Shown here: one piece after another, positions 5,423 through 7,279 of the stretch
How positions within the stretch are numbered: position 1 is the stretch's first letter
How the letters are laid out: every line of letters begins with the position of its first letter
Virus genome (UHGV): UHGV-1567921
Source: a virus
Direction: 5' to 3' (one strand)
Length of the DNA stretch: 11,891 bases
The notes under the pieces: generated by a model
Databases searched by the model: none
Told to the model about the DNA's origin: nothing
What the model saw: the letters and a program-made list of their open reading frames with translations, nothing else
Program-made: the position numbers and the translations under genes

Positions 5423-6096
5423 GCTGCACCATCACCTTTCACTTTCATCAATGTCAGGTTTCCGCAAAATACGGCACCAGTGTCGATATACTGCTGATTC
5501 CAGAATGTCTTCGGGCTTTTCACCGGAGTGTGACCAAAGATAAAACGATCTGCGCCCGAAATTTCGCCACCAATATCATCCATCGAATCACTGATACGCT
5601 CGCGCGCCCAGACAACGTTGAAAAGCGGCACCTCCTTACCGAATTGGTATTCATTATCCGGATAGTCGGCATGGGCTATAACGATAGTTTCTTGCCCCGT
5701 GTTCAACTCAATGATATAGGGCAGACGCTTTACCAGCTCCACCAGCGCCCAGGCTAATATTTCCTGATCAGTGTCCAGCATGAAGAACCATTGTCCGCCA
5801 TTCATTAGCCAGTTATTCACGTTGCCATCTGGACTTAACGCATCAATCATCAGCCGCTCATGGTTCCCCATCACTGCCCTGAACCAGGGCATCTGCAATA
5901 GTTCCAGACATTCGACATTTTCAGTACCGCGATCGATAAGGTCGCCGACCGATATCAGTAAATCCTGCGCCGGGTCAAAATCCACACGATGGAGTTCGGA
6001 CATCAGTCTGGTGTAGCAACCATGCAGATCACCAACAACCCAGACATTCCTGTATTTGGTACCGTCGATACGGTGATAAATTGTGGGTGCCATCAT
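5419..6096 (-). CDS. Ser/Thr protein phosphatase, lambda PPase-like (PPP / calcineurin-like metallophosphoesterase)
   Basis: PPP signature motifs GDLHG, GDLIDRG and GNHE, with overall colinearity to lambda ORF221 phosphatase as I recall it ([16 protein letters not shown]... [21 protein letters not shown]... [13 protein letters not shown]). The likely start is ATG 6094-6096, forming an ATGA overlap with the upstream stop; the track's longer start at 6111 adds 5 residues. Confidence 0.9.
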
Positions 6097-6719
6097 GTAT
6101 TCTTCAGCCATTCTTTAAGAGTCATCTGCGGAATACCTCCCATTTTCCCGCATGAAACAACGTCAATCTGTTCACGCGCAGACTGGAATAACAAAGGCAG
6201 GTGACTTAGATTTTTTGGCGTGCCGCCGGAGTGAACGCGTAGTTCTTGCGTAGCGTCAACGCCCACCAGAGCTACATGTTTGAATCCGATATGGAAAGCC
6301 AGGTTCAGAGCACCATATGCACTATTGCCGCTGGCAATTTCATTCTCATCTTCGCAAAGGCCGAAATGTGCGGACCAGCGCCACGCCCACCACTCGGGAG
6401 AATTCGTATTTTTTGGCTCCATGCCGCGTTCAGCCACACGACGGAAGCACAGAACGCCATCTCTGACTTCACGTTCTTTAACATCGGGTAGTGCCATGCA
6501 ATAACAAACACCACGGCGACGGCGGCCACGACCAACGCGCCGCATATTGTCTGGGGATGGATCAAGGGTGAAAAAATAAGAAGCGCGGTTAAGCCAGTCG
6601 ATGGCCCCATTGACCGCTATAATCGGCACTCCGCGCGGCGCAACAAAGTTTGCGGCGCTTGGGCCACTGCCGACGATAATAACGCGATCACTGCCTCTAA
6701 ATTTATTCTTGGGAAACAT
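6093..6719 (-). CDS. Putative nucleotide-sugar glycosyltransferase, CstII (GT42) / MptE-like (DUF115) fold, 208 aa; paralog 1
   Basis: N-terminal [14 protein letters not shown]...VPIIAVNGA resembles the CstII sialyltransferase N-terminus (VIIAGNGPSL...). [26 protein letters not shown] resembles the CstII block TSGVYMCAVAIALGYKEIYLSGID. Clearly paralogous to the next gene. Confidence 0.7.
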
Positions 6720-7279
6720 TGAATTGCACTGCTCCTACTTGCATTCAAAATATGTAAATCTGCGTGTTTTTTGCGGGTATCCAGGAACTGCTGTTGCCAT
6801 TTTGAAATAGACACCTGCGTTGGATTCCGTAGTGCTTGAGGGTGCGCGCCATGCCAATGAAGGCCGTTTTGCAGAGAACAGTCATAGCCGACTAATACCA
6901 CTACTTCAGCCCCTGATTCAGCAGCCAGACTGATAGCCTGCGCGCCGCTATTTACCCCTTCCGCCGGTCCACAATATCGCCTGTACTCCAACGAAAATGA
7001 TTTCGCCGCCGCCAGGTTGGCTGTCACTTTGCGGAACCTCCCTCCCGGTATGGTGGAACCGTATTGCTTCCACCATGACAAATCACCGGCGTATAAGGCA
7101 TAAATGTCATCGAACATCTGCCAGGAATTGTTAACCGCGATGATTGAACAGCCAGTTTTTTCTATAGCAGCACAGTCCTCACGAGTGAGTGACGGACCGC
7201 TACCGACACAAAAAACAGTCCTAGTCGCCCTGGGTGGTATGTTCATTCTCAGCTGCAAATTCAGCCTCCAGGCGAGCAT
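6617..7279 (-). CDS. Putative nucleotide-sugar glycosyltransferase, CstII / MptE-like fold, 220 aa as drawn; paralog 2; start and 3' end uncertain
   Basis: TVFCVGSGPSLTRED...CSIIAVNNS and GVNSGAQAISLAAESGAEVVVLVGYD are equivalent to paralog 1. By alignment with paralog 1 the true start may be the internal ATG at 7244-7246 (MNIPPRATRTVFCVGSGPS). The 3' end overlaps paralog 1 by 103 nt out of frame. Confidence 0.65.
   Translation of the reverse strand: MLAWRLNLQLRMNIPPRATRTVFCVGSGPSLTREDCAAIEKTGCSIIAVNNSWQMFDDIYALYAGDLSWWKQYGSTIPGGRFRKVTANLAAAKSFSLEYRRYCGPAEGVNSGAQAISLAAESGAEVVVLVGYDCSLQNGLHWHGAHPQALRNPTQVSISKWQQQFLDTRKKHADLHILNASRSSAIQCFPRINLEAVIALLSSAVAQAPQTLLRRAECRL

What the first reader, a model, noticed from the sequence alone, without database searches (positions are those of the whole stretch)
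6093..7279. Tandem paralogs with an unusual 103-nt out-of-frame overlap
The two CstII/MptE-like genes are clearly duplicated (shared N-terminal and central blocks) but diverged. As drawn, the upstream copy runs 103 nt (6617..6719) into the downstream copy in another frame, adding a tail (...[23 protein letters not shown]) with no counterpart in the paralog. This is either a genuine long overlap or a frameshift: real indel, sequencing error, or programmed frameshift producing a fusion.
Basis: seen in the sequence. Interest (0 to 1): 0.45.

Follow-up and report, generated by a model that had tools for sequence, protein, structure and literature searches.

The report
Real overlap of phage P1 pmgO/pmgP
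The two genes are pmgO and pmgP of bacteriophage P1, distant duplicates of a sugar-transferase-like enzyme, and their 103-base overlap is real and already in the reference annotation, with only its first ~40 bases constrained in both reading frames; the rest is an unselected read-on tail, so the finding is ordinary.

Summary
The window is 99.6% identical to phage P1. The two minus-strand ORFs are pmgO (6617..7279, 220 aa) and pmgP (6093..6719, 208 aa). The P1 reference record annotates the same 103-nt overlap.

- **Not an error.** About 140 independent P1-like sequences have the same structure, with no indel in the overlap. The junction occurs in 561 of 5,426 complete E. coli genomes.
- **Old arrangement.** In 13 of 14 junctions resolved (homologs down to ~40% identity), pmgP is in the -1 frame. 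In 12 its ATG sits on the conserved PmgO Cys codon. Overlap length ranges from 11 to 109 nt.
- **Split constraint.** The first ~40 nt encode PmgO's conserved C-terminal helix and PmgP's variable, low-confidence N-terminus. The last ~63 nt encode PmgP's conserved strand and GSGPS loop, plus a PmgO tail (residues 200-220). That tail is not conserved, is modelled with falling confidence, and takes mostly non-synonymous changes.
- **One in-frame O-P fusion** exists, on a single assembled contig.
- **Programmed frameshifting is poorly supported.**

pmgO, pmgP and pmgQ travel together as a module. Interest is low.

The parts
6617..7279 (-). pmgO coding sequence (220 aa), the upstream Maf/MptE-like paralog. 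Its stop codon TAG is at 6619..6617.
6093..6719 (-). pmgP coding sequence (208 aa), the downstream paralog. Its ATG is at 6719..6717.
6680..6719 (-). Core of the overlap (40 nt). In the pmgO frame it encodes the conserved C-terminus C188[11 protein letters not shown]199. In the pmgP frame it encodes residues 1-13, which are variable and modelled with low confidence.
   Evidence: The shortest common overlap class (40 nt; L118, L121, L131) ends PmgO exactly here. No variant occurs in 6670..6719 among 67 haplotypes, where about 6 are expected (Poisson P 0.002). Conservation over codons 1-11 in the O frame is 0.60, against 0.47 for codons 2-12 in the P frame. PmgP residues 1-10 have pLDDT 58 and strand 1 starts at residue 12.
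6617..6679 (-). Distal overlap (63 nt including the stop). In the pmgP frame it encodes strand 1 and the G-S-G-P-S-A loop. In the pmgO frame it encodes the unconserved tail L200..L220.
   Evidence: P-frame conservation is 0.74 against 0.29 in the O frame. The six population variants here are 1 synonymous and 5 non-synonymous in the O frame, but 4 synonymous and 2 non-synonymous in the P frame. Fisher P is 0.004 against the rest of pmgO. PmgO pLDDT is 73 for residues 201-210 and 57 for 211-220. The tail lies outside the PHROG profile and outside the hhalign match.
6732..6737 (-). TAGGAG. It serves as the Shine-Dalgarno sequence for pmgP (AGGAG, 12 nt before the ATG). It also holds the last in-frame stop of the pmgP frame (TAG 6737..6735). 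It lies in PmgO's conserved Ser-Arg codons.
   Evidence: Read directly from the sequence. A GGAG-type anti-SD match lies 4-11 nt upstream of the pmgP ATG in 12 of 14 loci. The local RNA is not unusually structured.
6681..6683 (-). pmgP Val13 codon GTT. A synonymous change of the third base (6681) to A or G would create TAA or TGA in the pmgO frame and cut PmgO to 199 aa.
   Evidence: Read from the sequence. Relatives L118, L121 and L131 use GTA or GTG here and end PmgO at exactly this codon.
6698..6704 (-). AAATTTA, an X_XXY_YYZ heptamer in phase for a -1 shift from pmgO into pmgP. It is a candidate site only.
   Evidence: Found. It is absent from the closest non-P1 relatives, which have AAATCTG. 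Such heptamers fall in this phase because each is a pair of homo-triplet codons in the pmgP frame. It is not in the class that is efficient in E. coli (PMC4066793). No downstream structure stands out (z -0.24).
4721..5422 (-). pmgQ (233 aa), a predicted glycosyltransferase and the third gene of the conserved pmgO-pmgP-pmgQ module. In P1 it is separated from pmgP by ppp (5419..6111).
   Evidence: A PmgQ homolog lies downstream of pmgP in all 24 non-P1 pmgP loci examined, directly after it in most and after ppp in the five P1-like ones. PHROG 1962 'glycosyltransferase' matches at E 1e-127.

Best explanation
This is a genuine, evolutionarily old overlap between two co-directional genes of phage P1. 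The genes are pmgO and pmgP, remote paralogs with the Maf/MptE/CstI-like nucleotide-sugar-transferase fold.

**How the overlap is read.** pmgP starts at ATG 6719. The A of that ATG is the last base of PmgO's Gln187 codon and the TG opens the conserved Cys188 codon. A GGAG Shine-Dalgarno sequence lies in PmgO's conserved Ser-Arg codons, so ribosomes can start pmgP inside the end of pmgO (the signals are shown; their use is inferred).

**Why the overlap is tolerated.** Constraint is split between the frames.
- The first ~40 nt are shaped mainly by PmgO's conserved C-terminal helix. Over this stretch PmgP has only a variable, low-confidence leader.
- The remaining ~63 nt are shaped by PmgP's first strand and G-S-G-P-S loop. 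The pmgO frame simply runs on until a stop happens to occur.

**What the P1 tail is.** Stops in the pmgO frame appear and disappear through changes that are synonymous in pmgP. For example, Val13 coded as GTA or GTG makes TAA or TGA. That explains why overlap length varies from 40 to 109 nt among relatives. P1's 21-residue tail (200-220) is most likely translated but without a function of its own (inferred).

**Likely role of the proteins.** Co-occurrence with pmgQ and one natural O-P fusion suggest that the two act together in a glycan-modifying module. That biochemical role is not shown.
For: **Identity and annotation.** The window is 99.6% identical to P1, and the same 103-nt overlap is in AF234172 and NC_005856.

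**Reproducibility.** 140 gapless P1-like copies give 67 haplotypes. Only one locus has an indel, and it lies outside the overlap. The junction is found in 561 of 5,426 complete E. coli genomes.

**Conserved architecture.** In 13 of 14 junctions resolved pmgP is in the -1 frame, and in 12 its ATG lies on the PmgO Cys codon. Overlaps are 11, 13, 40 (three times), 49, 67, 70 (twice), 94, 100 (twice), 103 and 109 nt. NCBI's own call in Citrobacter rodentium gives 94 nt.

**Where PmgO normally ends.**
- PmgO homologs with no pmgP next to them end a median of 22 residues after the NxSR motif. P1's PmgO ends 42 residues after it.
- The PHROG 4603 profile ends at PmgO residue 202.
- hhalign matches PmgO only up to residue 202.

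**Split constraint.**
- No variants occur in 6670..6719 (P 0.002).
- In the tail the O frame has 1 synonymous and 5 non-synonymous variants, against 56 and 15 elsewhere in pmgO (Fisher P 0.004). The P frame there has 4 synonymous and 2 non-synonymous.
- Cross-locus identity is 0.60 (O) against 0.47 (P) in the proximal part, and 0.29 (O) against 0.74 (P) in the distal part.
- pLDDT is low for PmgP residues 1-10 (58) and for PmgO residues 211-220 (57).

**Start of pmgP.** It is the only start codon between the in-frame TAG and the invariant G19/P20. A GGAG-type Shine-Dalgarno match is present in 12 of 14 loci. The PHROG 2111 match is full length.

**Paralogy and fold.**
Against: - No translation data exist here. 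No ribosome profiling or peptide shows that ribosomes read pmgO through to 6617, or that pmgP starts at 6719.
- The Shine-Dalgarno spacing in P1 (12 nt from AGGAG to the ATG) is longer than optimal.
- The population test on the tail rests on only six variants.
- The tail is modelled partly as helix (194-206 and 211-217). Long tails recur in several lineages (94-109 nt in L004, L006, L114 and L115), so a weak lineage-specific role cannot be ruled out.
- The idea that PmgO and PmgP act together rests on gene adjacency and on a single fusion found on one assembled contig.
- 22 of 26 genome loci carry a PmgO homolog with no pmgP within 3 kb.
Confidence: 0.8

Rival explanations
1. Programmed -1 ribosomal frameshifting. 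A fraction of ribosomes translating pmgO slip at A_AAT_TTA (6704..6698) into the pmgP frame. The product would be a PmgO-PmgP fusion of about 395 aa, resembling the natural fused homolog P0051.
For: pmgP is in exactly the -1 frame, and the last stop of that frame (TAG 6737..6735) lies upstream of the heptamer. Canonical X_XXY_YYZ heptamers occur in the usable phase in 5 of 12 overlaps and in no other phase. One natural in-frame O-P fusion exists.
Against: - The heptamer is absent from 7 of 12 loci, including P1's closest relatives, which have AAATCTG.
- The phase bias is explained because each heptamer is simply a pair of homo-triplet codons (KK, KF, PF, PK) in PmgP's leader.
- A_AAU_UUA is not among the motifs that are efficient in E. 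coli. Even the best motifs shift only about 0.3% without a stimulator (PMC4066793).
- The downstream RNA is no more structured than shuffled sequence (z -0.24).
- A shift at this site would delete PmgO's conserved L194-E195 helix, which the natural fusion keeps.
Confidence: 0.05
2. The 21-residue PmgO tail is a selected, functional C-terminal extension in P1. It might contact PmgP, or it might tune pmgP translation by keeping ribosomes on the pmgP start region.
For: Long tails (94-109 nt overlaps) occur in several distant lineages. AF2 draws helices at 194-206 and 211-217. The 220-aa form is the dominant allele, with 382 member sequences in its cluster.
Against: - Tail length and sequence are not conserved, even between P1 and relatives 67-70% identical to it, which stop 11 codons earlier.
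- 5 of 6 population variants in the tail change its amino acids.
- pLDDT falls to 57 over residues 211-220.
- The apparent similarity between tails (SSAVAQAP against SSAAVPVQ) is the out-of-frame reading of PmgP's invariant GSGPSA.
- The read-on length matches chance expectation.
Confidence: 0.1
3. The long overlap comes from miscalling the pmgP start. pmgP would really begin at GTG 6629, giving a 178-aa product and an overlap of only 13 nt.
For: Some pipelines call exactly this. P0054 is 178 aa with 373 member sequences. The Citrobacter rodentium homolog is called as 176 aa by one gene caller. Large co-directional overlaps in prokaryotic annotations are usually start-codon errors (PMC2478687).
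Against: The shorter product would lack strand 1 and the G-S-G-P-S loop, including the invariant V16, G19 and P20. These are the strongest block shared with PmgO and with CstII-type enzymes. The PHROG 2111 profile aligns from residue 1. Met1 is conserved and preceded by a Shine-Dalgarno match in 12 of 14 loci. The model folds residues 12-16 as the first strand at pLDDT above 95.
Confidence: 0.03
4. A sequencing or assembly error, or a private indel in this particular genome, created the apparent read-through.
For: Frameshifted pmgO variants do exist in databases. P0002 (48 members) shifts at the A6 run 6772..6767. P0019 carries a 1-nt insertion that fuses the tail to PmgP.
Against: The overlap region has no indel in about 143 independent P1-like loci. 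It is at least 99% identical in 550 records from complete E. coli genomes. It equals the curated P1 reference. The same frame relation holds in homologs down to about 40% identity.
Confidence: 0.01

Closest known systems
pmgO and pmgP of bacteriophage P1 (GenBank AF234172 / NC_005856; former orf84a and orf84b)
   Same: Sequence identity is 99.6%. The coordinates, frames and 103-nt overlap match the curated record. Both genes scored non-essential in a CRISPRi screen of P1 (PMC10695390).
   Different: Nothing structural differs. The reference gives only 'putative morphogenetic function'. It says nothing about the overlap, the paralogy with pmgP or the link to pmgQ.
holD-rimI overlap of Enterobacteria, the longest co-directional overlap accepted as real by Palleja et al. 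2008 (PMC2478687)
   Same: Both are co-directional overlaps conserved across genera, with a length specific to each genus (32-56 bp there, 11-109 nt here). In both, the C-terminus of one protein and the N-terminus of the other are encoded together.
   Different: This one is in phages. The two genes are paralogs of each other. The conserved dual-coding core is about 40 nt, and the lineage-specific read-on reaches 109 nt. That exceeds the 60-bp limit above which that survey found no real co-directional case.
Maf (motility-associated factor) glycosyltransferases and the MptE-like / DUF115 superfamily, including Campylobacter CstI/CstII sialyltransferases
   Different: These are single-domain proteins of about 200 aa. 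The P1 sequences score below the Pfam cut-off, and no sequence-level PDB match is better than E 0.28. The donor, the acceptor and catalytic competence are all unknown.
Programmed -1 frameshift gene pairs of phages and IS elements (lambda G/GT tail chaperones, IS3/IS911 orfAB, dnaX)
   Same: The downstream ORF is in the -1 frame, and an X_XXY_YYZ heptamer sits in phase inside the overlap.
   Different: The heptamer is not conserved and is not of an efficient class. No stimulator is present. The downstream gene also has its own conserved start codon and Shine-Dalgarno sequence.

Membership tests
Genuine overlapping gene pair (as opposed to a misannotated long overlap) | Both ORFs are under purifying selection outside the overlap | tested here: met
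   pmgO has 56 synonymous and 15 non-synonymous variants. pmgP has 58 and 24. The sample is 67 haplotypes.
Genuine overlapping gene pair (as opposed to a misannotated long overlap) | The overlap and the frame relation are conserved in diverged homologs | tested here: met
   13 of 14 loci have pmgP in the -1 frame, and in 12 the ATG lies on the PmgO Cys codon.
Genuine overlapping gene pair (as opposed to a misannotated long overlap) | Gene lengths agree with orthologs (the rule of Palleja et al. 2008) | tested here: not met
   P1 PmgO is about 20 aa longer at its 3' end than the usual homolog. About 63 of the 103 nt are therefore a 3' extension of the upstream gene. The remaining ~40 nt do pass the rule.
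Genuine overlapping gene pair (as opposed to a misannotated long overlap) | Both products are translated across the overlap | not testable with these tools
   No ribosome-profiling or proteomic data were available.
MptE-like / DUF115 superfamily (Pfam PF01973; Maf, MptE, CstII-like fold) | Pfam PF01973 match above the gathering score | tested here: not met
   PmgO scores 23.4 bits and PmgP 20.9 bits against a cut-off of 34.6. Homologs do pass: P0051 scores 44.6 and P0234 scores 44.1. Many hits also carry precomputed PF01973.
MptE-like / DUF115 superfamily (Pfam PF01973; Maf, MptE, CstII-like fold) | Three-dimensional fold matches solved members | tested here: met
GT42 sialyltransferases (CstI/CstII) | Sequence-level homology to CstII | tested here: not met
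   The PmgO family profile against PDB finds 1ro8 and 2drj only at E about 0.9, over 22 N-terminal residues. The PmgP profile finds none.
GT42 sialyltransferases (CstI/CstII) | Catalytic His general base, CMP-sugar binding and sialyltransferase activity | not tested
   Invariant His141, His143 and His146 in PmgO and His173 in PmgP are candidates. No superposition on CstII's active site and no assay was done.
Programmed -1 ribosomal frameshift cassette | Slippery X_XXY_YYZ heptamer in the upstream frame, inside the overlap | tested here: met
   AAATTTA lies at 6704..6698 in phase. It is not in the class that is efficient in E. coli.
Programmed -1 ribosomal frameshift cassette | The slippery site is conserved among homologs | tested here: not met
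   It is absent from 7 of 12 loci. Where present, it differs in sequence and position.
Programmed -1 ribosomal frameshift cassette | A stimulatory RNA structure or an internal Shine-Dalgarno sequence at the right distance | tested here: not met
   The fold of 6600..6760 gives -44.3 kcal/mol against a shuffle mean of -43.5 (z -0.24).
Programmed -1 ribosomal frameshift cassette | A trans-frame fusion product is detected | not testable with these tools
   This needs an immunoblot or mass spectrometry.

The most novel reading that the evidence does not exclude
P1 and some relatives might make a small amount of a PmgO-PmgP trans-frame fusion by -1 slippage in the overlap (A_AAT_TTA in P1, A_AAA_AAT or C_CCA_AAA elsewhere). 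That would reproduce by recoding the two-domain enzyme that one other phage encodes as a single gene (P0051). The overlap would then act as a device that sets the ratio of separate subunits to fused pseudo-dimer in a phage glycan-modifying enzyme.
Probability: 0.05. Interest if true: 0.55.

Novelty: already known. Interest (0 to 1): 0.2.

Why it matters
The practical value lies in annotation.

- **A positive control for long overlaps.** This is a well-documented case of a real co-directional overlap above the 60-bp limit at which one large survey found only errors (PMC2478687). It is found in about 10% of complete E. coli genomes.
- **Pipelines mishandle it.** RefSeq records often omit pmgO altogether. 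Other pipelines truncate pmgP to 178 aa, which removes its nucleotide-binding loop.
- **It shows how such an overlap persists.** Each stretch is constrained in one frame only. The position of the upstream stop drifts through changes that are silent in the downstream gene.

Two by-products are more useful than the overlap itself. First, pmgO, pmgP and pmgQ form a conserved three-gene module of predicted glycosyltransferases in P1-like and lambdoid phages. Second, PmgO and PmgP are paralogs that occur once as a fusion. Together these give a testable lead on genes that have been labelled only 'putative morphogenetic function' in the P1 reference record.

Tried and rejected
- **RNA structure downstream of the candidate slippery site.** The fold of 6600..6760 is no better than shuffles (z -0.24).
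- **A hairpin hiding the pmgP ribosome-binding site,** which would argue for structure-based translational coupling. P1 and six homologs give weak folds (-3.9 to -6.4 kcal/mol, z -0.6 to +0.75) with no common structure. Rejected.
- **Sequence searches of PDB** with both family profiles found nothing significant. Fold comparison was needed.
- **NCBIfam.** The only matches are faint ones to WaaZ (KdoIII transferase), limited to the N-terminal ~50 residues (E 0.1 for PmgP, 2.9e-4 for P0051, against a cut-off of 200 bits). This is too weak to name a donor sugar.
- **Domain fusions as functional clues.** Longer homologs showed only Ig-like domains (P0197) or nothing. My guess that the C-terminal half of the 513-aa L099 protein is a GT9 heptosyltransferase got no Pfam support. 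Dropped.
- **An alignment to model the P0051 fusion.** MAFFT stacked PmgO homologs onto the PmgP domain, because the two are paralogs. The alignment was unusable, so the second structure job went to PmgP instead.
- **Literature.** Only two relevant papers mention pmgO or pmgP. Searches for pmgQ, hdmB and hdmC gave nothing relevant. The 2004 P1 genome paper is not held in the library.
- **Promoter and terminator scan of 5900..7600.** It found no internal promoter on the minus strand. The terminator-like hits lie inside coding sequence and were not pursued.
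Full report
**What is there.** The ORF list gives two minus-strand ORFs at exactly the stated coordinates: 6617..7279 (220 aa) and 6093..6719 (208 aa). They share 103 nt. Since 7280-6719 = 561 = 3x187, the downstream gene is in the -1 frame of the upstream one (sequence).

The 2.7 kb around them is 99.6% identical to bacteriophage P1. The curated P1 records annotate pmgO (79592..80254) and pmgP (80152..80778) with the same 103-nt overlap. The feature is therefore real, and it is already in the reference annotation.

**Not an error.** I aligned every P1-like locus fetched to the pmgO-pmgP region.
- 140 copies are gapless over all 1,187 nt and fall into 67 haplotypes.
- Only one locus has an indel (at 6576, outside the overlap), and one has an insertion near 6565.
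- The junction (6560..6800) is present in 561 of 5,426 complete E. coli genomes. 550 of the 563 matching records are at least 99% identical. It is also in 558 PLSDB plasmids.

**The genes are true but remote paralogs.**
- BLASTP sees only the N-terminal block (E 0.003).
- The PmgO family profile (A3, 28 sequences) against the PmgP family profile (A2, 18 sequences) gives hhalign probability 98%, E 1.7e-13, over 163 columns that cover both proteins almost end to end.
- AlphaFold models are confident: PmgO has pLDDT 87.6 and PmgP 92.8.

The P1 proteins themselves are below Pfam's MptE-like cut-off, and they have no significant sequence match in PDB.

**The overlap is old, and its length varies.** I examined 14 pmgO-pmgP junctions from P1-like plasmids, a Citrobacter rodentium lambdoid prophage, Pantoea, and metagenomic phages. 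PmgO identity to P1 in this set runs from 100% down to about 40%.
- In 13 of the 14, pmgP is in the -1 frame.
- In 12, its ATG is built from the last base of one PmgO codon plus the TG of the conserved Cys codon of the motif C-[FY]-P.
- Overlap lengths are 11, 13, 40, 40, 40, 49, 67, 70, 70, 94, 100, 100, 103 (P1) and 109 nt.
- NCBI's own gene calls in C. rodentium show 94 nt. A different gene caller trimmed pmgP to avoid the overlap.

**Where PmgO normally ends.** Four lines of evidence agree on about residue 199-203.
- The shortest common class ends at ...L-E-x-V-I-G, which is P1 residue 199.
- 22 PmgO homologs with no pmgP beside them end a median of 22 residues after the NxSR motif. P1's PmgO ends 42 residues after it.
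- The PHROG 4603 profile ends at PmgO residue 202.
- hhalign aligns PmgO to the last residues of PmgP only up to residue 202.

P1's residues 200-220 are therefore an extension. After the core, a run of 21 sense codons has probability (61/64)^21 = 0.37 by chance (my arithmetic).

**Constraint is split between the frames.** Ten junctions with the same spacing were compared.

| Part of overlap | O-frame pairwise identity | P-frame pairwise identity |
|---|---|---|
| Proximal (O codons 1-11, P codons 2-12) | 0.60 | 0.47 |
| Distal | 0.29 | 0.74 |

- In the proximal part, L194 and E195 of PmgO are invariant.
- The apparent similarity of the tails ([24 protein letters not shown]) is just the out-of-frame reading of PmgP's invariant G-S-G-P-S-A.
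- In the P1 population, no variant occurs in 6670..6719, where about 6 are expected (P 0.002).
- The six variants in 6617..6669 are 1 synonymous and 5 non-synonymous in the pmgO frame, but 4 synonymous and 2 non-synonymous in the pmgP frame. The rest of pmgO has 56 synonymous and 15 non-synonymous (Fisher P 0.004).
- The models agree. PmgP residues 1-10 have pLDDT 58 and its first strand begins at residue 12. PmgO pLDDT is 73 for residues 201-210 and 57 for 211-220.

**Why the stop position moves.** A stop in the pmgO frame needs T-A-A, T-A-G or T-G-A across two pmgP codons. L118, L121 and L131 code PmgP Val13 as GTA or GTG followed by A, which gives TAA or TGA. P1 uses GTT (6683..6681) and reads on to TAG at 6619..6617. 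One change that is silent in pmgP would remove the whole tail.

**Start of pmgP.** ATG 6719 is the only start codon between the in-frame TAG (6737..6735) and the invariant V16, G19 and P20. AGGAG lies 12 nt upstream, inside PmgO's conserved Ser-Arg codons. A GGAG-type match is present in 12 of 14 loci. The PHROG 2111 profile aligns from residue 1. The alternative GTG 6629, used by some pipelines (P0054, 178 aa, 373 members), would delete the nucleotide-binding loop. The start region has no notable or conserved RNA structure, so I infer ordinary internal initiation.

**Frameshifting.** The geometry would allow a -1 shift to make a fusion, and P1 has A_AAT_TTA in phase (6704..6698). Several things count against it.
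- Only 5 of 12 overlaps have any canonical heptamer, at differing positions. P1's nearest relatives have AAATCTG.
- All five are in the usable phase, but that follows from their being pairs of homo-triplet codons (KK, KF, PF, PK) in PmgP's leader.
- In E. coli the efficient classes are V_VVA_AAR and H_HHU_UUY. UUA in the A site is poor. Even the best motifs give about 0.3% without a stimulator (PMC4066793).
- No stimulatory structure stands out.
- A shift there would delete PmgO's conserved last helix.

I put this at about 5%.

**The fusion and the module.**
- One homolog, P0051 (376 aa, on a 62-kb phage contig from a single sequencing run), is an in-frame PmgO-PmgP fusion that keeps the full PmgO C-terminus.
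- A search of 1.84 billion cluster representatives with P0051 as query found no second O-P fusion among the best 150. It did find two proteins with two PmgO-like domains. The fusion is rare and rests on one assembly.
- A PmgQ homolog lies downstream of pmgP in all 24 non-P1 pmgP loci, including the fusion locus. It follows pmgP directly in most. ppp lies between them only in P1 and the five P1-like loci.
- PmgQ matches PHROG 1962 'glycosyltransferase'.
- One locus also carries a cytidylyltransferase and an HAD phosphatase nearby.
- I infer a three-gene glycan-modifying module. The donor and the target are unknown. Both pmgO and pmgP were non-essential for plaque formation in a CRISPRi screen (PMC10695390).

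**Context.** A survey of 338 prokaryotic genomes found no real co-directional overlap above 60 bp. Its longest accepted case was holD-rimI at 32-56 bp (PMC2478687). By that survey's rule, about 63 nt of the P1 overlap count as a '3' extension of the upstream gene', while about 40 nt are true conserved dual coding. Long overlaps are less unusual in phages (my own knowledge).

**Verdict.** The 'genuine overlap' alternative is supported. Error and indel are excluded, and frameshifting is unlikely. The feature is already annotated in the P1 reference, so interest is low.

Noticed in passing
window 7221..7279 (pmgN/pmgO) and ATG 7246: The P1 annotation also overlaps pmgN and pmgO by 59 nt. If pmgO started at Met12 (ATG 7246) the overlap would be 26 nt. 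PmgO residues 1-20 have low pLDDT and the PHROG profile starts at residue 25, so the true start is open. pmgN scored essential in the CRISPRi screen, while pmgO and pmgP did not.
   Followed up: partly
window 6767..6772 (A6 run in pmgO): A database cluster of 48 sequences (P0002, 174 aa) is a pmgO frameshift variant. It changes frame at this A6 run and ends at TAG 6737..6735, just before the pmgP ATG. pmgO is therefore sometimes inactivated in natural P1-like plasmids.
   Followed up: partly
L193 (NZ_JBRAWD010000003.1) 325..1608; P0054; P0161: Annotation of this junction is inconsistent. PGAP omits pmgO in the one intact RefSeq E. coli plasmid record inspected, and most listed hits show only one annotated gene under the junction. 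Other pipelines start pmgP at an internal GTG (178 or 176 aa), which loses the GSGPS loop. The misspelt product name 'norphogenetic protein' has spread widely.
   Followed up: yes
window 4721..5422 (pmgQ); loci L003, L004, L006, L090, L114-L133: A pmgQ homolog lies downstream of pmgP in every non-P1 locus examined. The ppp phosphatase sits between them only in P1 and the five P1-like loci. PmgQ has a D-L-D motif and a faint match to a GT8-type galactosyltransferase (6mw5, E 0.089).
   Followed up: partly
L006 9658..10633: In one metagenomic phage, the pmgO-pmgP-pmgQ module lies about 3 kb from a cytidylyltransferase (CTP_transf_3) and an HAD_PNKP phosphatase like P1's Pap. This hints that a CMP-activated sugar is the donor.
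   Followed up: no
P0019 (partial protein, E. coli O111:H8 CVM9574, 454-nt contig): This entry reads through the pmgO stop into pmgP (…[16 protein letters not shown]…). A 1-nt insertion near 6619 would explain it. It is probably a sequencing error, but it shows how a single indel in the overlap makes a fusion.
   Followed up: no
L091-L113 (bacterial genome loci): 22 of 26 genome loci with a PmgO homolog have neither pmgP nor pmgQ within 3 kb. Serratia plymuthica has both PmgO-like and PmgP-like genes about six genes apart. PmgO-type proteins can evidently work without an adjacent PmgP.
   Followed up: partly
P0197 (556 aa), P0247 and P0249 (442 and 413 aa): Some distant homologs fuse a PmgO-like domain to bacterial Ig-like domains (Big_1, Big_13). 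Others carry two PmgO-like domains in tandem.
   Followed up: no
window 6241 (PmgP residue 160): The window encodes Leu160 in PmgP, whereas 46 of 67 P1-like haplotypes encode Pro160. This window carries the minority allele at a site in the region between the conserved GVDAT and GG motifs.
   Followed up: no
window 6093..6111 and 5419..5422: The chain of overlaps continues downstream. pmgP and ppp overlap by 19 nt, and ppp and pmgQ by 4 nt, so pmgN through pmgQ are packed without any intergenic space.
   Followed up: no
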